DNA from: a virus
DNA length: 10,294 bases
Strand: one strand, 5' to 3'
UHGV virus genome: UHGV-1651392
Below are positions 1-10,294 of the stretch, piece by piece. Under the pieces are notes generated by a model. The model saw nothing but the letters and a program-made list of their open reading frames with translations, was not told the origin of the DNA and made no database searches. A program made the translations under genes and the position numbers. Each line of letters begins with the position of its first letter. Positions within the stretch are counted from its first letter, which is position 1.

Positions 1-48
1 GATCCGAACGTTACAGAAAGAAAAAGCGCCCCGTTGCTAGATAACAGG

Positions 49-78
49 CAAAACAAAGGCGACCGGGATAGGTCGCCA
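49..78 (-). terminator. Putative rho-independent terminator for leftward transcription
   Basis: Perfect 7-bp inverted repeat GGCGACC (59-65) / GGTCGCC (72-78) with a 6-nt loop. On the minus strand it is followed by a T-rich run (complement of 49-58, CTTTGTTTTG). Lies downstream of the leftward genes at 381-560 and 144-323. Confidence 0.35.
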
Positions 79-143
79 GTGGGAACAAAGGAAATCAAAC
101 GCATCGCCAACAATGCCAGATTTGCGGCTGGTGGGCAATGTGA

Positions 144-323
144 TCAGTCAGATTTGGTTCGTTCCAGGGTTTGCAACGAGAGCTTTTTCCTGTGCTCTTT
201 AAGGAATTTCTCAAGAGCAAACGAACAAGGTGCGAATCTTTCTGATTCATGTTCATGCGCTATATTTTTGCGTCGTCTCTTACGAGTTGGTGATGGTGTT
301 TTTGTTGATTCTGTGTCGCTCAT
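144..323 (-). CDS. Hypothetical small basic protein (59 aa), possibly co-transcribed with the upstream RHH gene
   Basis: Hand-translated minus-strand ORF just under the 60-aa track cutoff: MSDTESTKTPSPTRKRRRKNIAHEHESERFAPCSFALEKFLKEHRKKLSLQTLERTKSD. ATG is complement of 321-323, stop is complement of 144-146. Only a weak RBS; sits between the RHH gene and the terminator. Could be spurious. Confidence 0.25.
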   Translation of the reverse strand: MSDTESTKTPSPTRKRRRKNIAHEHESERFAPCSFALEKFLKEHRKKLSLQTLERTKSD

Positions 324-380
324 GGTGCTGCCCTGTAAAGCAATGCGCCTGCGTTCCTCAAACTATGGCGCTGATAGTGG

Positions 381-560
381 CTATTCCTGCTCTTTGGCCT
401 TGCGCCGCTGGCGGCGTTTGATCTCGCCTTCAAGTGCTGAAACGATAAATTGTCCCGTGCTTTCGCCAGCTTCCTTTAAGTTTTCTACAGCGTCGGCTAT
501 TGCGTGGGGAACTCGTGCTTCAAGTTTCTTCGATTTTGCATTAACGGCCTTCGTTGCCAT
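381..560 (-). CDS. Ribbon-helix-helix (CopG/Arc/MetJ-type) DNA-binding regulator, 59 aa; putative repressor of the element
   Basis: Internal ATG (complement of 558-560) of track ORF 381..677 is preceded by a strong RBS (AAGAGGA, complement of about 567-573). Product MATKAVNAKSKKLEARVPHAIADAVENLKEAGESTGQFIVSALEGEIKRRQRRKAKEQE shows the RHH pattern: short beta-strand (LEARVP), helix A, GES turn, helix B, basic tail. The longer track start would add a hydrophobic extension encoded over the operator repeats, so it is rejected. Confidence 0.7.
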   Translation of the reverse strand: MATKAVNAKSKKLEARVPHAIADAVENLKEAGESTGQFIVSALEGEIKRRQRRKAKEQE

Positions 561-580
561 ATCTGGATTCCTCTTTATTA

Positions 581-661
581 GGTGGCTGACAGTATACACA
601 CAAGAAATCGAAAAAACACTATTGACGTGGCTGACACCTGTTACTAATATGGTGGCTGACA
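581..661. promoter_or_regulatory. Candidate operator: three direct repeats of GTGGCTGACA between divergent genes
   Basis: Exact 10-mer GTGGCTGACA at 582-591, 627-636 and 652-661 (first and third extend to GGTGGCTGACA). The second lies in the promoter spacer and the third over the predicted transcription start. Confidence 0.5.
622..650 (+). promoter_or_regulatory. Sigma70-type promoter for the rightward operon (-35 TTGACG, 17-bp spacer, -10 TAATAT)
   Basis: TTGACG at 622-627 and TAATAT at 645-650 with a 17-bp spacer; about 110 bp upstream of the first rightward CDS (761). Confidence 0.5.
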
Positions 662-760
662 CTTTTAGTTGTTGCAAGCAACAAAACGACGAAACCCCGC
701 ACTGTTGGAGCAGTAACGGGGCCTCTAACCACCAACGATAGCGAAAGTATCGAGGTAGCT

Positions 761-964
761 ATGTTAAATCATACCACACACCCGCAAGGGCGGGATTCGC
801 ACAACCTGAATAAATACATCTGGCGTTTTATCGCCCTGAGCACGGCACAACCGCGCGTGATTACCATCGAGGCCACCAGCGAACAGAAAGCCCGTCAGCA
901 ATCCCCGGCTGGCTGCGTGATGGTATTTACTGCTCGCATCCGTCAGGGGGAATACTATGCGTGA
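761..964 (+). CDS. Small hypothetical protein (67 aa), first gene of the rightward early operon
   Basis: Track ORF with GAGG at 752-755 just upstream of the ATG at 761. Its stop overlaps the next start (ATGCGTGA). My unverified recollection is that similar small proteins in P4-like/PICI islands are annotated Icd-like. Confidence 0.55.
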   Translation: MLNHTTHPQGRDSHNLNKYIWRFIALSTAQPRVITIEATSEQKARQQSPAGCVMVFTARIRQGEYYA

Positions 965-1214
965 TGAACGATTTATTCTTCTGGAGCAAAAATTCAGTGA
1001 AGCGCCAAAAAATGAAATTGATGCTCTTTTGCATATCGCGAATATGCTAAAAGTAGCAACGTTCCTTATAGTTTCGAATCTGGAGCATGAAACGGCGTTA
1101 GATATACTGAACAGTGCTGTCGATTATTCTGAATATATTGCCGAGGATAAATACAGGCAATTACCAGATTTGTTAGCCCATAAATATAAAGAAGAACCTC
1201 ACACCGGGAAATAA
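957..1214 (+). CDS. Hypothetical protein (85 aa), noticeably AT-rich gene
   Basis: Track ORF; start overlaps the upstream stop by 8 nt; RBS GGGGGA upstream. Looks clearly AT-richer than its neighbours by eye (not counted). Confidence 0.55.
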   Translation: MRDERFILLEQKFSEAPKNEIDALLHIANMLKVATFLIVSNLEHETALDILNSAVDYSEYIAEDKYRQLPDLLAHKYKEEPHTGK

Positions 1215-1216
1215 AC

Positions 1217-1519
1217 ATGAAGAAGATTAAATTTACTGGCTTAAATGCCAGCGGACAGACTCATCCGAAAATCAGGATCGGGGATATTTTCCGGGATAAA
1301 TATGGTGACAGCGTGGTTATTAATTCCGTGTATGAACGGCACATTACATACCGCCGCGCAGGGTATGACTATGACTGTGTGATGCCCGTTCATCAGTTCC
1401 GGCGTGATTTTTCACTGGTATGTGCAGCACCACGCAGTAAGCCCACCAGTAAAGAGAAAGCACGGGCAAATATTCAGGTAATAAAGAACATGATTAACGC
1501 ATTCAGGGGCAAGAAATGA
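1217..1519 (+). CDS. Hypothetical protein (100 aa)
   Basis: Track ORF starting 2 nt after the previous stop; its stop overlaps the next ATG (ATGA at 1516-1519), suggesting coupling. Confidence 0.55.
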   Translation: MKKIKFTGLNASGQTHPKIRIGDIFRDKYGDSVVINSVYERHITYRRAGYDYDCVMPVHQFRRDFSLVCAAPRSKPTSKEKARANIQVIKNMINAFRGKK

Positions 1520-3642
1520 AACGCGCACCGAATTTAAAGCACCAGCCGAAAGACAAAATGACGGAGGTGATTATCTTTGCGGGTAGTGATGCCTGGGCAC
1601 ATGCGAAAGAGTGGAGCGAATGGGCCGGAAAGCATATTGCGGCAGATGATACACATCCAGTTATTCTTGGACCGGAACAACTGGCGAGTCTGGCAGACAC
1701 GCAAATCATCGACAAAGGGCGCTATTACGTGCGCGTTTATCGTGCTGGTGAAATATCAGAGCAGCACCTTACACAGATAGCGACACTGCTTGCAGTGGCG
1801 GGTGTGAAGGAGGCGCGTTGCTACCGCAGCTTTGTTGATCAGCAGCCGGAGGACTGGACACCGCGCATGACTGGACTGAAGGATGATGCGGAACGCGGTA
1901 ACAGTCTGGTGATCAACCTTCCGGCGAAGACAAATTTCACCGGAAATTATGATGACGAATTAAAGCCTCGTGTTGAAAGTCGCGTCGATGGTGTTTTCTG
2001 GGTAACGCCCAAAGTGGACAAGCAGTCAGGCGAAATTATCCGGCCTGAGACGTGGTTATGTTCTCCGCTTGAACTACTGGGAACAGGAACAATCGGCAAA
2101 GAGCATTACCGCGTGATGCGCTGGAAAAAACCAGCAAACCATGAGGTCATTACAATGGCGGTCCCGTGCGGAGGCATTGGTGACCGTGACGGCTGGCGGT
2201 TGCTGAAAGACCACGGCCTTAACGTGACGACCAACGGCAAATACAGGGCTATCCTGGCTGACTGGATGCAGTTAAGCGGAAACCATGAGGAATGGCAGTT
2301 AAGCACAACAACGGGGTGGCATTTTGGTGCGTACATCATGCCGGATGGTTCGATCATCGGTGAATCAGAGAAACCCATCCTGTTTACCGGAAAAACTGCC
2401 GCTGTTAATGGCTATTCCGTGGCGGGAACAGCGGAGGGCTGGCGCGATACCGTGGCACGGCTGGCTGGTGGTAATCCGTCCATGATGCTGGGTGTGGCGG
2501 TATCGCTATCTGCACCATTAATCGGGCTGGTGGGTGCTGACGGCTTCGGGGTTCATCTTTTTGAGCAATCATCAGCAGGTAAAACCACCACACAGAACAT
2601 TGCCTCAAGTTTATGGGGAGAGCCGGACGCGCAACGGCTGACCTGGTACGGAACGGCGTTAGGTATCGCCAACGAGGCCGAAGCACATAATGACGGGCTG
2701 TTACCCCTGGATGAAATAGGCCAGGCCGGAAACGCACGGGAGGTGTCCACGTCAGCCTATACGCTGTTTAACGGTTCCGGGAAATTACAGGGGGCGAAGG
2801 ACGGCGGCAACAGGGAGATAAAACACTGGCGTACGGTGGCAATCAGCACCGGAGAAATGGACGTTGAAACATTCCTCAAAACGGAAGGGATAAAAATTAA
2901 AGCGGGGCAGCTTGTCCGTCTGCTTAACGTACCGATGGAAAAGGCCTCGCAGTTTCACGAATACAGCACCGGAAAGGCGCACGCAGACGCGTTAAAAAAT
3001 GCCTGGACAGAAAATCACGGGGCGGCAGGTCGTGAGTGGGTTAAATGGCTGGCAGGTCACCAGCAGGAGGCAAAGGACGCGGTAAAGGCATGTCGCGAGC
3101 GGTGGCGCAACCTGATACCGGAGAGCTACGGCGAGCAGGTTCACCGTGTGGGGGAAAGATTCGCCGTACTGGAGGCCGCGCTTGTGCTTTCCGGTCATGT
3201 TACAGGCTGGGATGTTCAGGCGTGCCGTGATGCAGTTCAGCATAACTTTAATGCCTGGGTGAAGGAATTCGGCACGGGCAACAGGGAATTTAAACAGATG
3301 GTTGAACAGGCTGAGGCGTTTTTGTCGTCGTTCGGGTTCAGTCGATACCTTCCCTATCCAAACAGCGACGAGCGTGATTTACCGATTAAAGACCTTGCCG
3401 GATACAGAAAGGGGAGCATCAGAAACGAAGATGAGGAGTTCCGTTTTTACACGTTCCCGCATGTGTTTGAGGGTGAGATAGCACAGGGATTTAATCCGTC
3501 TCACTTTGCCCGCGCGTTGAGTGCTGCCGGAATGCTGGAAGCGGGAGGCGACCGCCGTTACAAGAAAAAGGCGCTCGGCAGGATTGGCGGGAAGCAGCAT
3601 ATTTTTTACGTGCTGATGTTCCAGCCTGAAGCAGAATATTAA
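1516..3642 (+). CDS. Replication protein: P-loop NTPase of the DUF927-like primase/helicase type (708 aa)
   Basis: Long ORF with coupled start. Walker A-like motif SSAGKTTT (about 2566-2592) and Walker B-like hhhhDE motif LLPLDEIGQ (about 2698-2724). Directly followed by an iteron cluster, as expected for a Rep/initiator gene. Confidence 0.8.
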   Translation: MKRAPNLKHQPKDKMTEVIIFAGSDAWAHAKEWSEWAGKHIAADDTHPVILGPEQLASLADTQIIDKGRYYVRVYRAGEISEQHLTQIATLLAVAGVKEARCYRSFVDQQPEDWTPRMTGLKDDAERGNSLVINLPAKTNFTGNYDDELKPRVESRVDGVFWVTPKVDKQSGEIIRPETWLCSPLELLGTGTIGKEHYRVMRWKKPANHEVITMAVPCGGIGDRDGWRLLKDHGLNVTTNGKYRAILADWMQLSGNHEEWQLSTTTGWHFGAYIMPDGSIIGESEKPILFTGKTAAVNGYSVAGTAEGWRDTVARLAGGNPSMMLGVAVSLSAPLIGLVGADGFGVHLFEQSSAGKTTTQNIASSLWGEPDAQRLTWYGTALGIANEAEAHNDGLLPLDEIGQAGNAREVSTSAYTLFNGSGKLQGAKDGGNREIKHWRTVAISTGEMDVETFLKTEGIKIKAGQLVRLLNVPMEKASQFHEYSTGKAHADALKNAWTENHGAAGREWVKWLAGHQQEAKDAVKACRERWRNLIPESYGEQVHRVGERFAVLEAALVLSGHVTGWDVQACRDAVQHNFNAWVKEFGTGNREFKQMVEQAEAFLSSFGFSRYLPYPNSDERDLPIKDLAGYRKGSIRNEDEEFRFYTFPHVFEGEIAQGFNPSHFARALSAAGMLEAGGDRRYKKKALGRIGGKQHIFYVLMFQPEAEY

Positions 3643-3852: not shown

Positions 3853-4278
3853 ATGACGGCGCAAATATCAGCTTACGGGCGGCTGGTGGCTGACCCGCAG
3901 TTAAAGACCACCAGCAAGGGCACACAAATGGCGATGGCGAGTATGGCGGTCCCCCTTCCATGCAATCAGGCAGATGACGGAACGGCGACGATGTGGTTAT
4001 CCGTCCTGGCGTTTGGCAGACAGGCTGACGCACTGGCAAAACACCACAAAGGCGAACTGGTGAGCGTGGCCGGTAACATGCAGGTGAGCCGGTGGACGGG
4101 CCAGAACGGCGAAACGAGGCAGGGATGGCAGGTTATCGCAGACAGCGTAATCAGTGCGCGAACGGCGCGACCGGGCGGCAAAAAAGGCCAGCAGGGGCAG
4201 GCTACTGATGCACTGAACAGGGCAAAGCAACAGACAGGCCAGCACGATGATCCGTACGGGGACGGGATACCGTTTTAA
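3853..4278 (+). CDS. ssb: Single-stranded DNA-binding protein (141 aa)
   Basis: RBS GGAGAA at 3839-3844. OB-fold-like core with conserved aromatic positions, a Gly/Gln-rich linker and an acidic C-terminal tail ending DDPYGDGIPF (compare E. coli SSB DDDIPF). Confidence 0.85.
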   Translation: MTAQISAYGRLVADPQLKTTSKGTQMAMASMAVPLPCNQADDGTATMWLSVLAFGRQADALAKHHKGELVSVAGNMQVSRWTGQNGETRQGWQVIADSVISARTARPGGKKGQQGQATDALNRAKQQTGQHDDPYGDGIPF

Positions 4279-4314: not shown

Positions 4315-4812
4315 ATGACAAAGCTGACCATAAACAGAAAACCGAAGGGCATTTACGGCACGCCGCAGAAAACAGCACAGGCGGCGCAGCAGCAGAATAA
4401 AACCACATCGGCGCATAAAGTGATGCCAGATAACCAGAACACACAGCAGAAGCTCACAGGAGCAACACCGCGGCGGCGTATGACCAAACAGCAGCGTAAA
4501 AACCGCAGACGCGTTAACCGTCTTATTGAGCTATGGCCTGAATTATTCAGCCCGGAATCACCTAAGCCGCTTAAGGTGGGGATATTTGACGACCTGATAC
4601 AGGATATTGCCGCGAGAGGTATTTCACTCGGACAGGGAACACTACGCGCAACGCTGGCGCGTTATGTGCAGACTCCGCGCTATTACCGCGCCCTGGTAGC
4701 TGGTGGCGCGCGTTACGACCTGAAAGGCCAGCCGTGCGGCGAGGTAACACCACTACAACAGACGCACGCAGGAAAACTACTGGAGGAGATGAATGGAAAT
4801 AGAAAGAAATGA
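4315..4812 (+). CDS. ProQ/FinO-family RNA-binding protein (165 aa)
   Basis: RBS AGGGGA at about 4303-4308. Segment [27 protein letters not shown]...[35 protein letters not shown] closely parallels the ProQ N-terminal FinO domain (PLKIGIF.DL ... LR.AL..Y..S.RY ... R.DL.G.PCGE). Confidence 0.85.
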
Positions 4813-5209
4813 TCACGCACATGGTCGCCGTGCAGGTGATCACATTGTGGATGAAATTGCGAAAAAACAAAGAGTTGACATTGTTGTCAGTGTCACAGTC
4901 GAGAGCGCGAAGCGCCAAAATAAGCGTATAAATGATCATTCAGATGTACATGGTGTGATCACTCGTTTACGCCAGACTTTTGTAACTCGTGAAGAGATGA
5001 TTGAAGCTATTGACCAGCATACAGCATGTATCAGCGTCAGGGATATACCGGAGATCATTGCTAACTACTTCATGATCACCAGACGCCTTTACCGGAGAAA
5101 AGACAAGAGCACGGTTAACCGTCTCCTGATGTCTGATATTCGCGAATACCTGCAAGAAAGAGGCTATGTGAATCCACCAGAACAGCACTACGGAAAAGTC
5201 GGAGGCTAA
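4793..5209 (+). CDS. Hypothetical protein (138 aa), overlapping the 3' end of the ProQ/FinO gene
   Basis: Track ORF; ATG at 4793 preceded by GGAGGA at 4782-4787 (5-nt spacer); overlaps the upstream gene by 20 nt. No recognisable motifs. Confidence 0.6.
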
Positions 5210-5878: not shown

Positions 5879-8410
5879 ATGCCAGTCGTACCAACAGTAT
5901 CCGGACGCCAGGTTGAGAGCCGTGGAGTTCAGTCAGCAGGCTTGCAGACGTTTTCTCAGCCAGATATTGGTGATGCTTTTGTTCGGGCAGGGACAGAGGC
6001 AATTGATGTTCTTGGTCAGGCAAAACAGCGCGCCAATATTGCCTTGGTTCAGGAGGCATCCCTTAAACTCAGTCAGACAGGCAGTGATCTGCTGAATAAT
6101 CCTGAAACAGGATTGCTTAACTTGAAAGGGAAAAATGCTATTGGAAAAGGCCATGAGTATACACAGCAGTTTGATGCTCAGATCGAACAACTGGCTATGT
6201 CGCTGCCGGATGAACAGGCTCGTAATGCTTTCATGCAGCAGGCGCAGCAGCAGCGTATTCAGTTCGCTACGCAGGCCGGGAGGTACGAGATAGGGCAAAT
6301 AAATGCCTACGAAGAAGGCCAGTTTCAGGCGACACTGCTGAATAATGGTAAAAATGCCTCAGCATTATATGGCGACAACGCAGCATACATATTGGCTAAT
6401 ACGCAAACTTTCCAGCAAATTGAGGATTACGGTATTGCGCATGGCTGGAGCGACGAGCAAATCCAGGCCAAGAAAATCGAGTTTAAAGAAGCAACAGCAA
6501 AAGCAACTGCTCAAAATGCTATTGGAGCAAACTATCTTCAGGTAAGACAGCAAAATGGCGAGTTAAGCGATACTGCTGCTGGATCTCGCCGTGCTGTAGC
6601 AGATAGTGGCTCTTCCGATCGTACCCGCGGTATACGCAACAATAACCCCGGCAATCTTGAATACAGCAAAACTAATCCGTGGGTTGGGCAGACTGGTGAT
6701 GATGGTCGCTTTGCCAAATTCGAAACCCCTGAACACGGTATTCGCGCGCTTGGTCGCAATTTGCTGTCGTATCAGCGTCAGGGTTATGACACCATCAGCG
6801 AAATAATTAATCGCTGGGCACCGGCCAGTGATGATAATAAAACTGATGCTTATATACGGGCAGTATGTGCTCAGCTCGGTGTAACTCCTGACCAGCCGCT
6901 TGACGCATCAAATCCTGACACACTGAAATCTCTGTGCAAAGCAATTATTCATCATGAGCAAGGCAGTCAGCCGTACAGTGATCAGCAATTGGCCGCTGGC
7001 GTTAGTGCCGCACTGGGGCTTTCTCAGCTACCGACAAAAAATAAACGTTATACCGGTGTAGCCTGGTTCGATGCTTTAAGTGAATCAGATCAGGCCAGCG
7101 TGTTGCGACAGACGGATGCATTAGCCAGACAGCAGCAGGCTGAATATAGAACGATGCTCGAAAGCCGGGTTCGCGATGCAACGGCTGCGTATATGCGTGG
7201 CGTTGAATTTCCTAACCCGCCTGGTGAGGGTGAGTTCATTGCTGCTTATGGTGTCAGAGAAGGAAACCTGCGATATACCGAGTTCAGAAATTTGCAGATC
7301 GCCGGACAGTATATAGGCTCTTTCCGCAACATGCCGACAAGCAGCATTACCGCATATGTTGAGCAATTACGCCCGGATACTGGTGAGACAGGGGAGGGGT
7401 ATGCGTCTCGTGCGGAGTTATTCGACCGGGTATCGGCGGCAGCCACGAAGGTAATAACCCAGAGGCAGAATAATCCGTTTAGTGCAGCGGTGGAAATCGG
7501 AGCCTATAAGCCGATCACCAGCAACAACCCTGACGACATCACTGCCGAGGTGGCTAACCGTTTCTCGTCGCAGGAAAGCTTACGCGCGTTGGGAATTAAT
7601 GCCCCACTCCTCAACAGTGAAGAGGCGGCTGCGCTGGCACAGCAGGTGCGCGGCACTCAGAACGTTGACCAGACAATTAAACTGTTGCAGAGCATGGGGG
7701 AGAAGCTGCCTGCGCCAGCAATACGGCAGGTGGCATCTGTAATTGCTCCGAACAGTGCGGCAACAGCCTATTCTGCGCTGCTGCTGGGCACGCCGGATAA
7801 CCAGTACGACAACACCAGGCCGACGATCCCATATAGTCAGTTCATCGGGTATAAGCCGACGATGAACAAGTACGACGTTGCAAAGGTTATTCTTTCCGGC
7901 GACCAACTACTGAATCCGACGAAGGCCATGAAGAATGCGGGCATAACTCCGGTACAGTTGCCGAGCGAAGATAAGATGAAAGACGCTTTCGACGAACAGG
8001 TAGGTAATGCATTTGCCCGTAACCCGCAGTTACGCCAGATCAGTTATAGCCTTTTCAAAGCCGCTTACGCAGGAATAGCTTATCAATCTGGTGATGCCTC
8101 TACGGTAAGAACCAGTATGCCTGATACAGACATTGTAGCTGATGCCGTGAAGTATGCTACTGGCGGTATATACAATGGTTTTAATGGCGGCGACGTTGTA
8201 ATGCCTTTTGGCATGGATAAATCTACTTTCAAAGATCGCTATACCACATCTGCGAAACAAGCACTGAAAGATGCCGGACTTAACGTAAATGCAGTGTCAA
8301 ATTTCACGCCAGTTAATATCGGCAATAACCGGTATCGGCTTGTAAATGGTAGCGGACGCTGGGCAACAGATCCCAGAACCAATAAAGCTATTGTCGTGAG
8401 GGTTGAATAA
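5879..8410 (+). CDS. Large protein of unknown function (843 aa); possibly a virion/cell-envelope-associated or effector-type protein
   Basis: Long ORF with RBS AGGGGG (5866-5871). Gln/Ala-rich, probably helical N-terminal third. Central segment with conserved-looking motif RTRGIRNNNPGNLEYSKTNPWVGQTGDDGRFAKFETPEHGIRALGRNLL. Stop overlaps the next ATG (TAATG at 8408-8412). Function not assignable from sequence alone. Confidence 0.8.
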   Translation: MPVVPTVSGRQVESRGVQSAGLQTFSQPDIGDAFVRAGTEAIDVLGQAKQRANIALVQEASLKLSQTGSDLLNNPETGLLNLKGKNAIGKGHEYTQQFDAQIEQLAMSLPDEQARNAFMQQAQQQRIQFATQAGRYEIGQINAYEEGQFQATLLNNGKNASALYGDNAAYILANTQTFQQIEDYGIAHGWSDEQIQAKKIEFKEATAKATAQNAIGANYLQVRQQNGELSDTAAGSRRAVADSGSSDRTRGIRNNNPGNLEYSKTNPWVGQTGDDGRFAKFETPEHGIRALGRNLLSYQRQGYDTISEIINRWAPASDDNKTDAYIRAVCAQLGVTPDQPLDASNPDTLKSLCKAIIHHEQGSQPYSDQQLAAGVSAALGLSQLPTKNKRYTGVAWFDALSESDQASVLRQTDALARQQQAEYRTMLESRVRDATAAYMRGVEFPNPPGEGEFIAAYGVREGNLRYTEFRNLQIAGQYIGSFRNMPTSSITAYVEQLRPDTGETGEGYASRAELFDRVSAAATKVITQRQNNPFSAAVEIGAYKPITSNNPDDITAEVANRFSSQESLRALGINAPLLNSEEAAALAQQVRGTQNVDQTIKLLQSMGEKLPAPAIRQVASVIAPNSAATAYSALLLGTPDNQYDNTRPTIPYSQFIGYKPTMNKYDVAKVILSGDQLLNPTKAMKNAGITPVQLPSEDKMKDAFDEQVGNAFARNPQLRQISYSLFKAAYAGIAYQSGDASTVRTSMPDTDIVADAVKYATGGIYNGFNGGDVVMPFGMDKSTFKDRYTTSAKQALKDAGLNVNAVSNFTPVNIGNNRYRLVNGSGRWATDPRTNKAIVVRVE

Positions 8411-10245
8411 TGTCTGATGTTTTTTCTTTGGCTCCAGAAGGTCAGGCATGGATTGACGACAAAACAGTTGCCAACCCAGCAAGGCCAGAAGACTACGATC
8501 CGACTCCCTTCCAGGGTTCAGGTACTGCACTTTTGAGCGGCGTGGCGGAGGGGGCTCTCGGTCTCGCGCAGTCTGCCGTCGGATTCAGCAAGCGCCTGAT
8601 TAGCGATCCGGCATTTACCGCAGACGTGGCACCGACAGTTAATATTTTTCGGGAGATGTTCCCTGATGCTGACAAAACACTGAATGATACATACGACACG
8701 ATCGGAAAACAGTTACAGGATGCCCGCAGCTATGTGAAGCCTGATGCAGGCAGCCAGGGAATGGCGGCTGAGGTATTAAATGAGGTTGGTAAATTTGTTC
8801 CTGCAATCGGAACAACTATGTTTGGTGGTCCGCTCATCGGCGCTGCTACAGCCTTCAGTTCTACGTATGAGCAGTCCTATCAGGATTTTAAAGGGAAGGG
8901 AGTAGACGAGGCTACAGCGCGTAACCTGGCAACGCAGCAGAGCCTTTTCAATGCTGTGGGTATGGCCTTACCCGCTGCCGTCGGCACCACACTGGCAACG
9001 CGCATTGCCTCAGGTGTGGCAATCAACACCGGATTCGGTGGACTGAACCGTTACTCAGTAGGCGCAACACTGGAGGAAAAAGGCTACACGGAGATGGCAA
9101 AACAGTACCGGGTATTTGACGGTCAGGCGATGTTAGTCGATGCCGTTTTAGGCGGGGTCTTTGGTGGCGTTCATCACCTGACTACCCATAATAACCATGA
9201 TGGTACAGAGTCGAACATTTCTGCAGAAGAAATAAAATCAACTTTTGGTGAACATTATCAGCAATCTCCTGATGGTAACATTGAGTCAATGGTTCGTGAT
9301 TTATCTGATTCAGGAGTAATAGAACTTATTAATGAACCAGCAATAAAAAATAGTGATGGAGAAATACTTCTGAATAAAGGTCATGTGACAGTAGCTTCCG
9401 GAAAAGAACCAATAATAAGAATAAATATTAATGGATTAAAAGACCATGAAGAACTGTTAGAAACCCTTCATCACGAGGCGCTTCATCTTGAGCAGCGCCA
9501 TTACCCTGACTGGAAGGCCAGAAAGCTAGCTAATGCTGTACTTAAATCTGCAAACAAGCATTCTGACTATCCTGAATTTGCATATGGGATGTCACAATAT
9601 TATGAATATAAGAAAAGGGGTGAGTACCCTGAAACATATCCTGAGTGGTTGTACGCTGAAGAAGTTGCCGCACATGCAGTAAATCCATCTCTAAAGACAA
9701 GCGTTTCATCATGGGAAAAAATTATTTCAGGTTTTAAAGCCTATATATTCAGATACAGTGGTATTCAGGTTGGAACCGTTACACCTGAGCAGTTACGGTT
9801 ACTCGTAAGTATGCGTCTTCGCAATATGAAACTGGAAGCCGCAGTAGAAAAAGTTTTTGGTATCCGGGCGAGGGAAAGAATAAAACCAAGCGATATTGAT
9901 GCAGCCCACATTTTGAATGAGGGGCTTCATTACGATATTGAATCGTCACCAGTGCTTCATACCAGCAATGAGAGCATCAACAGCCATGTTGACGCCATGG
10001 ATGAAGCATACAGGCAACTTAATGATGGTCAGCCTGTAAATGTTGGGGGGATGGCGCGAGGGCTTGATGGTCCATTGCGATCAGATATATCTGATACTTA
10101 CCAAGAGCAATACCATGAAATACAAAAGGTTTTTGAAGAAAATGGTGTCAGATACGAAACATCATCAGAGCCAATTAGTGAATCGCCTGTCCCTCGTGAA
10201 CCGCCCCGGGAATCCTGGAGACTAAACTTCCTGAGAAAGAGGTAA
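8410..10245 (+). CDS. Modular protein (611 aa as read): GC-rich Gly/Ala-rich hydrophobic N-terminal trunk plus AT-rich C-terminal domain with HExxH motif; 3' end fused to and truncated by an IS element
   Basis: Coupled start with RBS GAGGG (8398-8402). N-terminal 257 aa contain repeated small-residue hydrophobic segments (for example GTTMFGGPLIGAATAF, ALPAAVGTTLATRIASGVAINTGFGG, VLGGVFGGV). Sampled 60-nt blocks fall from 57-68% GC to 28-35% GC at about 9180. HEALH motif at 9472-9486. The last 16 codons (from 10197) are IS-derived, so the native C-terminus is missing or altered. Confidence 0.75.
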   Translation: MSDVFSLAPEGQAWIDDKTVANPARPEDYDPTPFQGSGTALLSGVAEGALGLAQSAVGFSKRLISDPAFTADVAPTVNIFREMFPDADKTLNDTYDTIGKQLQDARSYVKPDAGSQGMAAEVLNEVGKFVPAIGTTMFGGPLIGAATAFSSTYEQSYQDFKGKGVDEATARNLATQQSLFNAVGMALPAAVGTTLATRIASGVAINTGFGGLNRYSVGATLEEKGYTEMAKQYRVFDGQAMLVDAVLGGVFGGVHHLTTHNNHDGTESNISAEEIKSTFGEHYQQSPDGNIESMVRDLSDSGVIELINEPAIKNSDGEILLNKGHVTVASGKEPIIRININGLKDHEELLETLHHEALHLEQRHYPDWKARKLANAVLKSANKHSDYPEFAYGMSQYYEYKKRGEYPETYPEWLYAEEVAAHAVNPSLKTSVSSWEKIISGFKAYIFRYSGIQVGTVTPEQLRLLVSMRLRNMKLEAAVEKVFGIRARERIKPSDIDAAHILNEGLHYDIESSPVLHTSNESINSHVDAMDEAYRQLNDGQPVNVGGMARGLDGPLRSDISDTYQEQYHEIQKVFEENGVRYETSSEPISESPVPREPPRESWRLNFLRKR

Positions 10246-10294
10246 ACAGGATGACTAAAAATACTCGTTTTTCCCCCGAAGTCCGTCAACGGGC
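10197..10294 (+). mobile_element. Left end of an IS3-family insertion sequence (IS629/IS1203-like), continuing beyond the window
   Basis: Sequence TGAACCGCCCCGGGAATCCTGGAGACTAAACTTCCTGAGAAAGAGGTAAACAGG followed by ATG ... MTKNTRFSPEVRQR matches my recollection of the IS629-type left inverted repeat and OrfA start. The exact boundary (10196/10197) is from memory and needs confirmation. Confidence 0.6.
10251..10294 (+). CDS. IS3-family transposase OrfA, N-terminal fragment (partial at window edge)
   Basis: ATG at 10251 with RBS GAGG (about 10240-10243); translation MTKNTRFSPEVRQR(A) is characteristic of IS3-family OrfA helix-turn-helix proteins. Confidence 0.7.
   Translation, partial: MTKNTRFSPEVRQR

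What the first reader, a model, noticed from the sequence alone, without database searches (positions are those of the whole stretch)
561..760. Divergent control region: triple GTGGCTGACA repeat overlapping a near-consensus promoter, next to an RHH repressor gene
Three exact 10-bp direct repeats (582-591, 627-636, 652-661) sit between the RHH gene and the rightward replication operon. Two of them occupy the spacer and start site of the promoter TTGACG-17-TAATAT. This is the geometry expected for a master-repressor operator (Stl/cI analogue) controlling induction. RHH proteins often bind direct repeats as higher-order oligomers.
Basis: partly seen in the sequence, partly recalled or inferred. 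Interest (0 to 1): 0.5.

Follow-up and report, generated by a model that had tools for sequence, protein, structure and literature searches.

The report
Satellite repressor gene and its operators
Three copies of an 11-bp two-fold-symmetric sequence around a strong promoter are very probably the binding sites of the small ribbon-helix-helix protein encoded next door, which would give this family of E. coli phage satellites a repressor switch, backed by an antisense RNA, that a 2018 paper on the family left as an open question.

Summary
GTGGCTGACA occurs exactly at 582-591, 627-636 and 652-661, and TTGACG-17-TAATAT lies at 622-650. The window is a Gram-negative phage-inducible chromosomal island (PICI). 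The prototype EcCICFT073 carries the same module.

The repeats are better described as three 11-bp 5-1-5 dyad operators, GTG-N5-CA(C/G). In about 40 related loci from 12 genera, all operator copies change together with the adjacent YlcI/YnfO-family protein. The same beta-strand residues go with the same operator across genera, and about 14 pairings were seen. Residue 14 tracks half-site base 5: E/D with C, K with G, A with T, Q with A. AlpA, the Icd-like protein and the primase do not track the sites.

The protein model resembles solved ribbon-helix-helix (RHH) proteins. O2 and O3 cover the rightward replication-operon promoter. O1 abuts the protein's own -10.

The architecture resembles phage P22 immI.

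Binding, repression and any role in induction are untested. "Master repressor controlling induction" is therefore unproven, and the variable site spacing argues against oligomers on tandem repeats. This is a new member of a known kind, with moderate-to-high interest for satellite biology.

The parts
30..116 (-). Three terminator-like hairpins that would end the leftward RHH-orf59 transcript. They lie in the gap where it converges with the upstream rightward antA/BRO genes.
   Evidence: Pattern scan; gene map of the identical island.
144..323 (-). Small basic ORF (59 aa) downstream of the RHH gene, function unknown. It is syntenic in most E. coli relatives and absent in several other genera.
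   Evidence: ORF list; PHROG 21027, unknown function; neighbours annotated; absent in L023 and L020.
381..560 (-). YlcI/YnfO-family gene, 59 aa, predicted RHH repressor. Predicted beta-strand is K12-L-E14-A-R16-V, followed by helix A, the G32-E33-S34 turn and helix B.
569..574 (-). Shine-Dalgarno AGAGGA of the RHH gene.
   Evidence: Read from the sequence.
582..592 (+). Operator O1, GTGGCTGACAG. It is a hybrid site: a type-specific left half and a promoter-constrained right half. It covers the start site of the leftward promoter.
591..596 (-). Predicted -10 (TATACT) of the leftward RHH promoter; no recognisable -35. A -10-like hexamer abuts O1 in 12 of 13 specificity types, although its sequence differs (TATACT, TATGAT, TATCAT, TACAAT, TATAGT). 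In E. coli type D (L008/9/13/15) CATACT is present but no operator copy lies next to it.
   Evidence: Read. Inference, not mapped.
605..617 (+). A-rich tract upstream of the -35, possibly an UP element of the rightward promoter. An A-rich run is present here in all relatives.
   Evidence: Read. Inference.
622..650 (+). Rightward promoter TTGACG-17-TAATAT of the icd-like/DUF4222/primase/SSB operon. The -35 sits 61-63 nt from the RHH start codon in all 26 loci of the first two samples.
627..637 (+). Operator O2, GTGGCTGACAC, overlapping the -35 and the spacer.
652..662 (+). Operator O3, GTGGCTGACAC, over the predicted rightward start site (~657-659).
683..760 (-). Predicted 78-nt cis-antisense sRNA. 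It has a 5' stem-loop, a single-stranded GUUGGUGGUUAGAG stretch and a 3' terminator hairpin (721-695) followed by UUUCGUCGUUUU. It is fully complementary to the icd-like 5' UTR, including the Shine-Dalgarno GAGG at 752-755.
   Evidence: A covariance model built without the window scores 85.7 bits here. 95.3% of cells pair on the minus strand, with many G-U pairs, and 14 pairs show double changes. MFE is -33.4 kcal/mol, z = -4.8. The plus-strand leader gives z = -1.1.
768..776 (-). Extended -10 promoter TGgTATGAT for the antisense RNA, inside the first codons of the icd-like gene. It predicts a start at A760.
   Evidence: Read. L022 has the equivalent TGgTAATAT exactly 7 nt upstream of the 5' end given by the Rfam SymR alignment.
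761..964 (+). Icd-like gene, first gene of the repressed rightward operon.
   Evidence: NCBIfam NF033153; annotation of the identical island.
1516..3642 (+). DUF927 primase/helicase, the replication gene of the operon.
   Evidence: Pfam PF06048; PHROG 1139, DNA primase.

Best explanation
The window is a Gram-negative phage-inducible chromosomal island of the EcCICFT073 type. Region 561-776 is its divergent control region. The 59-aa YlcI/YnfO-family protein (381-560, minus strand) is a ribbon-helix-helix repressor. As a dimer it inserts a two-stranded beta-ribbon (residues 12, 14 and 16 of each chain) into the major groove of an 11-bp 5-1-5 dyad, GTGGC-T-GACAC. O2 and O3 occlude the -35/spacer and the start site of the strong rightward promoter. 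This shuts off the icd-like/primase/SSB replication operon. O1 is a weaker hybrid site over the start of the protein's own weak leftward promoter and gives negative autoregulation. A constitutive 78-nt antisense RNA (683-760, minus strand) pairs with the icd-like 5' UTR and ribosome-binding site and silences leaky transcripts of a probably toxic gene. Shown here by computation: the sites and their geometry; concerted co-variation of the sites with the protein's beta-strand; exclusion of three other candidate binders; RHH-like fold; structure, strand and conservation of the antisense RNA. Inferred: actual binding, repression, autoregulation, the promoter start sites, expression of the RNA, and how a helper phage overcomes the lock.
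Confidence: 0.78

Rival explanations
1. The RHH gene and the downstream small ORF (144-323) form a toxin-antitoxin-like pair. On this reading the repeats are only its autoregulatory operator, and control of the replication operon is incidental.
Against: Two of the three sites lie on the divergent rightward promoter, with fixed geometry in all loci. The small ORF matches no toxin family. It is missing downstream of the RHH gene in Xenorhabdus, Klebsiella and Enterobacter loci that keep the operators.
Confidence: 0.07
2. The repeats are binding sites for AlpA, the known activator of Gram-negative PICIs, at the promoter it switches on.
For: AlpA activates EcCICFT073 gene expression (PMC6092414).
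Against: AlpA alleles do not track the sites. AlpA is 27% identical between the window and Xenorhabdus L023, which share the same operator. It is 97% identical between L013 and L018, which have different operators. Sites over the spacer and the start site are repressor positions.
Confidence: 0.03
3. The repeats are iterons or an origin recognised by the island's primase/helicase, or they are operators of the Icd-like protein, whose PHROG families are labelled 'transcriptional repressor'.
For: Repeats next to a replication operon. PHROG 6196 and 1743 carry the label 'transcriptional repressor'.
Against: The same operator occurs with unrelated primase families: DUF927 here, Zn-ribbon/Toprim/D5_N in L023. 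The window's Icd-like protein is 92-95% identical to those of loci with other operators, and only 46-53% identical to two same-operator loci, with no meaningful alignment to a third. Klebsiella L020 and Salmonella L024 keep the operators without an icd-like gene. PICI origins are described as lying 3' of the replication gene (PMC6092414).
Confidence: 0.03
4. The RHH protein is a centromere-binding or copy-number protein (ParG/omega/CopG-like) that acts only after excision, not a maintenance repressor of the integrated island.
For: RHH proteins of plasmids do exactly this. CopG represses the copG-repB promoter (established knowledge). Two members gave a weak Pfam match to a ParB C-terminal RHH domain (E = 0.049).
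Against: No ParA-type ATPase is present in the island. The sites are three spaced dyads on promoters, not a tandem array. A strong unrepressed promoter driving an Icd-like division inhibitor and a primase would be hard to tolerate in the integrated state. This rival overlaps the main explanation: the same binding with different timing.
Confidence: 0.08

Closest known systems
Phage P22 immI region (Mnt and Arc RHH repressors, Oarc/Omnt at divergent Pant/Pmnt, sar antisense RNA, ant)
   Same: The architecture matches almost gene for gene in the annotated P22 record. A leftward RHH gene is followed by a 59-aa ORF. Divergent overlapping promoters carry RHH operators. A short antisense RNA starts inside the downstream gene and covers its ribosome-binding site. 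The terminator hairpin of the window's RNA family resembles the sar terminator (15.7 bits). Relative L022 matches Rfam sar at 27.8 bits.
   Different: No detectable sequence homology of the protein to Mnt (E = 0.5), and only a weak register match to Arc. The 59-aa ORFs are unrelated. There are three spaced single-dimer dyads instead of adjacent tetramer operators. The controlled operon is icd-like plus replication genes, not an antirepressor alone. The host element is a satellite. The protein is absent from 50,697 phage records at E <= 1e-3.
Stl/Rpr master repressors of Gram-positive PICIs (SaPIs)
   Same: A divergently transcribed repressor gene lies between the integrase side and the replication operon of a phage satellite. 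The predicted function is to keep the replication operon silent.
   Different: No sequence relationship was tested; the RHH fold here is predicted, not solved. Stl is relieved by binding of helper-phage proteins. Here no inducer is known, and the family's documented switch is the activator AlpA (PMC6092414). Whether loss of the RHH gene causes uncontrolled replication is untested.
Phage P1 immI (c4 antisense RNA, icd, ant) and P4 CI RNA immunity
   Same: An icd-like first gene is guarded by an antisense RNA acting at its ribosome-binding site. Two relatives (L003, L013) carry bona fide C4, isrK and c4-a1b1 elements inserted in the same leader (82 and 75 bits).
   Different: The window has no C4 match. 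Its RNA is cis-encoded on the opposite strand, not processed from the same transcript. A protein repressor sits on the promoter.
CopG of plasmid pMV158 and other RHH transcriptional repressors (MetJ, omega, ParG, NikR)
   Same: A small RHH dimer reads a pseudo-symmetric site through beta-strand residues i, i+2 and i+4. It represses a promoter that drives a replication initiator (CopG).
   Different: CopG is co-transcribed with repB and polymerises along the DNA. MetJ and omega use abutting tandem boxes. Here there are three separate 11-bp dyads with variable spacing.
Lambda cI with the tripartite OR operator and lambdoid immunity types
   Same: Three related operators lie between divergent promoters. 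The weakest sits on the repressor's own promoter. Many heteroimmune specificity types exist within one element family.
   Different: The fold is different, there is no evidence for cooperativity or RecA-mediated cleavage, and the sites are 11 bp rather than 17 bp.

Membership tests
Ribbon-helix-helix (MetJ/Arc/CopG) superfamily | Beta-strand, helix, turn, helix fold | tested here: met
Ribbon-helix-helix (MetJ/Arc/CopG) superfamily | G-x-S/T/N turn at the start of helix B, and alternating hydrophobic/polar residues in the strand | tested here: met
   G32 (nearly invariant) and E33 (invariant) in 21 homologues; S34 invariant among the 8 E. coli sequences, S or T among the wider homologues listed. 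L13, A15 and V17 alternate with K12, E14 and R16.
Ribbon-helix-helix (MetJ/Arc/CopG) superfamily | Match to a curated RHH sequence model | tested here: not met
   No Pfam family at E <= 0.01. Only stray weak hits to RHH-type families in 2 of 21 members (PSK_trans_fac 0.03, CB_ParB_C 0.049). No PDB sequence match. hhalign to Arc gives E = 0.0045 with probability 7.7%.
Ribbon-helix-helix (MetJ/Arc/CopG) superfamily | Obligate dimer that binds DNA through the paired beta-strands | not testable with these tools
   Indirect support only: the sites are 5-1-5 dyads and residue 14 tracks half-site base 5.
YlcI/YnfO family (NCBIfam NF041551) | Score above the curated cutoff | tested here: met
   59 bits against a cutoff of 30. 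RefSeq gives the identical protein, WP_000201454.1, this name. No paper found assigns the family a function.
Gram-negative PICI, EcCICFT073 type | Gene order int, alpA, replication module with primase, accessory genes; about 12-18 kb; own attachment site | tested here: met
   The identical island lies between yicC and dinD and carries int, an HTH regulator, antA/BRO, the RHH gene, icd-like, DUF4222, primase, SSB, ProQ and PerC. EcCICFT073 itself carries the same RHH/icd-like/DUF4222/primase/SSB/PerC order and a type B operator set.
Gram-negative PICI, EcCICFT073 type | Induction, packaging and transfer by a helper phage | not testable with these tools
   Demonstrated only for EcCICFT073 and EcCIMP1 in the literature (PMC6092414, PMC11773190).
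PICI master repressor (Stl/Rpr-like, functional class) | Divergent repressor gene next to the replication operon | tested here: met
PICI master repressor (Stl/Rpr-like, functional class) | Loss causes uncontrolled excision and replication; a helper-phage protein relieves repression | not testable with these tools
   No data. In EcCICFT073, over-expressed AlpA is sufficient to trigger excision and replication, and deleting it significantly reduces induction and abolishes detectable transfer.
Rfam sar (RF00262) / SymR (RF01809) antisense RNAs | Score at or above the family gathering threshold | tested here: not met
   The window has no match even at E <= 10 on 341 nt. Relatives reach 32.9-42.8 bits for SymR (GA 61) and 27.8 bits for sar (GA 43). 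It works like these RNAs but is not a member by these models.
Rfam C4 antisense RNA (RF01695) | Score at or above the gathering threshold | tested here: not met
   No hit in the window. Present in relatives L003 and L013 (79.9 and 82 bits).

The most novel reading that the evidence does not exclude
Gram-negative PICIs, described as unidirectionally transcribed and with no clear repressor, do have an Stl-like maintenance repressor. It would be a YlcI/YnfO-family RHH protein that has diversified into at least 14 heteroimmune specificities through a simple two-residue recognition code. Different islands could then share one cell without cross-repression (up to 6 matching places per E. coli genome). 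Helper phages or the island's own AlpA/Ant/BRO genes would have to defeat this lock, for example by AlpA-driven read-through across the convergent RHH operon or by an antirepressor.
Probability: 0.35. Interest if true: 0.75.

Novelty: new member of a known kind. Interest (0 to 1): 0.6.

Why it matters
[quoted passage not shown] Later work treats AlpA as the master regulator.

This analysis shows that the prototype EcCICFT073 and many relatives carry a leftward RHH gene. A 671-bp query spanning the RHH gene, the control region and the icd-like gene (window 330-1000) matches 1544 of 5426 complete E. coli genomes at least in part, and 681 over at least 80% of its length. In RefSeq the gene carries a late-numbered locus tag. 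Its operators cover the replication-operon promoter, and an antisense RNA lies over the first gene.

If this is confirmed, three things follow. The model of how these satellites stay silent and are induced would need revising. An uncharacterised protein family (YlcI/YnfO) would gain a function. And the field would gain a natural set of orthogonal small repressor/operator pairs with a readable specificity code, which is useful for RHH-DNA recognition studies and for synthetic circuits.

Tried and rejected
Rfam on the whole window and on 560-900 found no family, so the leader is neither C4/CI nor SymR/sar by the curated models.

The single-protein version worked.

The idea that the conserved leader motif TCTAACCACCAACG is the target of a trans RNA encoded elsewhere in the island was dropped. 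There is no complementary copy in the 28.3 kb fetched around the island.

A nut-like boxA/boxB reading of the leader was considered and dropped. The order of the elements is reversed, and the structure forms on the other strand.

Homology of the 59-aa ORF to P22 orf59a: none. Homology of the RHH protein to Mnt: none detectable.

AlpA, the Icd-like protein and the primase were each tested as the site-specific binder and rejected.

Literature searches for YlcI/YnfO function or for an RHH repressor in PICIs found nothing relevant.

Full report
**1. What the window is**

The first 4300 bases are 100% identical to a chromosomal island of E. coli MS 196-1, inserted between yicC and dinD. Its gene order is:
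- integrase, a hypothetical gene, an HTH regulator, antA/antB antirepressor and a BRO-N pseudogene, all rightward;
- on the opposite strand, a YlcI/YnfO-family gene (window 381-560) followed by a 59-aa ORF (144-323);
- then rightward again: Icd-like (761-964), a hypothetical gene, DUF4222, a DUF927 primase/helicase (1516-3642), SSB, ProQ/FinO, an Ant-like protein, a frameshifted PerC, and large epsilon15-like virion proteins.

This is the layout of Gram-negative phage-inducible chromosomal islands (PICIs). I fetched the prototype EcCICFT073 from the CFT073 genome. It has the same block: int, HTH, a small ORF and a YlcI/YnfO gene on the opposite strand, then Icd-like, DUF4222, primase, SSB and PerC. 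In RefSeq the two leftward genes carry late-numbered locus tags (C_RS30800, C_RS30120).

**2. The observation**

GTGGCTGACA is present exactly at 582-591, 627-636 and 652-661. There are no other exact copies in the window or in the 28.3 kb fetched around the island (L001, island plus chromosomal flanks). TTGACG-17-TAATAT lies at 622-650 and is the only + strand promoter-like site in 1-1600. Each copy extends to 11 bp: O1 GTGGCTGACAG at 582-592, and O2 and O3 GTGGCTGACAC at 627-637 and 652-662.

**3. Comparative test, first round**

A 671-bp query spanning the RHH gene, the control region and the icd-like gene (window 330-1000) matches 1544 of 5426 complete E. coli genomes at least in part, and 681 of them over at least 80% of its length. 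I fetched 14 spread-out loci and lined up the sequence upstream of the small gene.

The protein falls into six sequence types. Each type has its own 11-mer at the same positions:

| Type | Residues 11-16 | Operator |
|---|---|---|
| A | KKLEAR | GTGGCTGACAC |
| B | QALKAR | GTGGGCCACAC |
| C | QQLNAR | GTGCGATTCAC |
| D | QTVAAR | GTGTTCAACAC |
| E | QSLTAR | TGTAAG-type |
| F | QKLQAR | GTGGATTCCAC / CTGGAATCCAG |

The geometry is fixed. The first site starts about 22 nt from the start codon. The -35 lies at 61-63 nt, the second site directly follows it, and the third lies 22-35 bp further on. In E. coli type D the first copy lies just upstream of the -35 instead of next to the leftward -10. 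EcCICFT073 carries the type B protein and GTGGGCCACAC over TTGACG-18-TATAGT.

**4. Comparative test, held-out rounds**

From a protein search I chose homologues in other genera. Some had beta-strands identical to an E. coli type and some had new ones. I fetched their contigs (printed).
- Proteus and Xenorhabdus proteins with KKLEAR have GTGGCTGACA three times at the same positions, although the flanking DNA has diverged. 33 of 33 site positions are invariant against 42 of 77 others (Fisher p = 2e-7).
- Klebsiella QTLAAR has GTGTTCAACAC.
- New strands have new sites: KRFDVR and KRIDAR with GTGTCCGACAC; KKMQAR with GTGGAGCACAC; TQLASR with GTGCTAAGCAC.

A third sample of 16 loci from one-genome-per-species data again matched.
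- Pseudocitrobacter QALKAR has GTGGGCCACAC.
- Pectobacterium QQLNAR has GTGCGATTCAC.
- Pectobacterium QTLAAR has GTGTTCAACAC.
- Six of the Xenorhabdus KKLEAR loci have GTGGCTGACA (some copies with one mismatch, one contig cut after the first site); three more have deletions between operator copies and one has an unrelated upstream region.
- A new strand, LQVSVR, has GTGGTGTTCAC.

Protein and sites are neighbours and so are co-inherited. But all copies in a locus change to the same new sequence, and they stay fixed while the surrounding DNA drifts. That pattern needs selection for recognition by one factor.

**5. Which factor**

- AlpA is excluded. It is 27% identical between two loci with the same operator, and 97% identical between two loci with different operators.
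- The Icd-like protein is excluded. PHROGs labels its families 'transcriptional repressor'. The window's copy is 92-95% identical to copies in loci with other operators. It is only 46-53% identical to those of two loci with the same operator, and has no meaningful alignment to a third. Klebsiella and Salmonella loci keep the operators with no icd-like gene at all.
- The primase family differs under the same operator.
- Only the adjacent small protein tracks the sites.

**6. The protein and a recognition code**

G32 is nearly invariant and E33 invariant in the 21 homologues; S34 is invariant in the 8 E. coli sequences, with S or T in the wider set. The strand alternates hydrophobic L13/A15/V17 with K12/E14/R16. 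A weak hhalign match to Arc puts K12/E14/R16 on Arc Q9/N11/R13, which are Arc's base-contacting residues (established knowledge).

The sites are 5-1-5 dyads. They are perfect palindromes in types D, F, G and I, and match at 4 of 5 positions in the window's O2 and O3. Residue 14 tracks half-site position 5:
- E or D goes with C;
- K goes with G;
- A goes with T;
- Q goes with A.

R16 is invariant and the outer GTG is nearly so. These pairings are the textbook amino-acid/base preferences. This fits one symmetric dimer per 11-bp site. The O2-O3 spacing varies between types (22, 23, 25, 26, 35 bp) without a conserved helical phase.

**7. Promoters**

O2 overlaps the -35 and spacer, and O3 the start site, of the rightward promoter. 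An A-rich tract lies just upstream of its -35.

On the other strand a -10-like hexamer abuts O1 in 12 of 13 types (TATACT at 596-591 here; TATGAT, TATCAT, TACAAT and TATAGT elsewhere). In E. coli type D, CATACT is present but no operator copy lies next to it. No -35 is recognisable. In several types (A, A', B, F', H) O1's right half is GACAG, irrespective of type, where it overlaps this promoter. O1 is therefore a hybrid site and probably a weaker one.

The inference is as follows. The RHH protein represses the strong rightward replication-operon promoter. At higher concentration it also represses its own weak promoter.

**8.

The leader between the promoter and the icd-like gene is conserved and shows compensatory changes. 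The structure belongs to the minus strand.
- 95.3% of cells pair there across 23 pairs. Many are G-U pairs, which would be A-C mismatches on the plus strand. On the plus strand 87.5% pair.
- The minus-strand RNA 760-683 folds at -33.4 kcal/mol, z = -4.8. The plus-strand leader gives z = -1.1.
- The fold is a 5' stem-loop, a single-stranded GUUGGUGGUUAGAG stretch, and a GC-rich hairpin followed by UUUCGUCGUUUU.
- An extended -10, TGgTATGAT (776-768, minus strand), sits 7 nt upstream of A760.
- In the Enterobacter relative L022, the equivalent TGgTAATAT lies 7 nt upstream of the 5' end given by an Rfam SymR alignment (42.8 bits, below the 61-bit threshold). Rfam sar also matches there at 27.8 bits.
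- A covariance model built from 15 relatives, excluding the window, scores 85.7 bits at 683-760 minus and 79 bits in EcCICFT073. It hits the P22 sar terminator only weakly (15.7 bits).

This is a predicted 78-nt cis-antisense RNA covering the Shine-Dalgarno sequence of the icd-like gene. Two relatives (L003, L013) additionally carry true C4, isrK and c4-a1b1 elements in the leader. This links the region to P1-type immI control.

**9. Comparison with known systems**

The annotated P22 record shows the same architecture: orf59a and mnt leftward, Oarc and Omnt on divergent promoters, arc rightward, sar antisense to the ant ribosome-binding site, then ant. The resemblance is architectural. There is at most partial RNA homology and no detectable protein homology.

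Functionally the module is the Gram-negative counterpart of the divergent stl/rpr region of Gram-positive PICIs. However, Fillol-Salom et al. 2018 (PMC6092414) describe Gram-negative PICIs as 'transcribed unidirectionally and rightward'. [quoted passage not shown] Other papers list YlcI/YnfO only as a prophage-associated protein (PMC13612085). I found no paper that assigns it a function. The protein is absent from 50,697 phage records at E <= 1e-3.

**10. What is not known**

Binding, repression, the start sites and expression of the RNA are all inferred. How the lock is opened is unknown.

Over-expressed AlpA alone drives EcCICFT073 excision and replication. So either AlpA-dependent transcription reads through the convergent RHH operon into the replication operon, or the upstream AntA/BRO proteins act as antirepressors. 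P. aeruginosa AlpA is reported to be an antiterminator (PMC7969949, title and abstract seen). Both ideas are speculation.

'Master repressor controlling induction' therefore remains a hypothesis. 'Operator set of the neighbouring RHH repressor' is well supported.

**11. Verdict**

- This is a new, uncharacterised member of the RHH repressor/operator kind. It has a clear specificity code and a companion antisense RNA, and it sits in a family of satellites reported to lack a clear repressor.
- Interest: 0.6.

Noticed in passing
window 683-776, minus strand: Predicted 78-nt cis-antisense sRNA with its own extended -10 promoter. It is complementary to the icd-like 5' UTR and Shine-Dalgarno sequence. 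It is conserved with covariation in 12 genera and sar/SymR-like in design, but below the Rfam thresholds.
   Followed up: yes
L003 789-1029 and L013 1124-1325 (E. coli relatives): In two relatives the leader between the RHH-controlled promoter and the icd-like gene carries inserted C4 antisense RNA (80-82 bits), isrK (69-75 bits) and c4-a1b1 target elements. RefSeq annotates this stretch as an 'ash family' pseudogene. It is a P1/P4-type immunity cassette stacked on the RHH module.
   Followed up: partly
window 5879-10245; L001 17879-25540: The island carries three or four large proteins homologous to epsilon15/phiV10-type internal virion proteins. They are 75-92% identical at the DNA level to Uetakevirus-like phages, and PHROG labels include head protein, endolysin and injection transglycosylase. 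This is unusual cargo for a PICI and hints at an epsilon15-like podovirus helper, or at replacement of ejection proteins.
   Followed up: partly
window 10182-10294: The window ends in an IS3-family (IS629-like) sequence. The 611-aa ORF at 8410-10245 is 686 aa in strain MS 196-1, so the IS probably truncates it in the source strain.
   Followed up: partly
window 4315-4812: A ProQ/FinO-family RNA-binding protein is encoded in the same island. It is a candidate chaperone for the antisense RNA/leader pair. Not tested.
   Followed up: no
window 4793-5209 and L001 17218-17443: A 138-aa protein matches the N-terminal part of PHROG 63 (anti-repressor Ant). A frameshifted PerC-family regulator lies downstream. 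PerC-like genes of related PICIs affect LEE virulence gene expression (PMC11773190).
   Followed up: no
window 144-323 (minus) and 30-116: A 59-aa highly basic ORF is co-transcribed with the RHH gene and followed by three terminator-like hairpins. It has the same size and position as P22 orf59a but is not homologous to it. It is absent from several non-E. coli loci.
   Followed up: partly
L033, L037, L044 (Xenorhabdus): Some loci have lost the DNA between operator copies: a single hybrid site, or O2 fused to the O3 flank. This looks like recombination between the repeats and removes the rightward promoter, so these are probably decaying islands.
   Followed up: no
L010 350-655 and L011 352-657: Type E proteins are 101 aa, with a 42-residue insertion before the conserved basic C-terminal tail. 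Their operators are the least symmetric and include an inverted copy. This may be a different oligomeric state, like the tetramerisation domain of Mnt.
   Followed up: no
L028 9243-9653 (EcCICFT073, NC_004431 1380242-1380652): The prototype Gram-negative PICI carries the leftward RHH gene and small ORF under late-numbered RefSeq locus tags (C_RS30120, C_RS30800). The paper that defined the family describes these islands as transcribed only rightward.
   Followed up: yes
window 3886-3895: A one-mismatch copy of the operator core (GTGGCTGACC) lies inside the SSB gene. It lacks the CAC arm and is probably chance.
   Followed up: no
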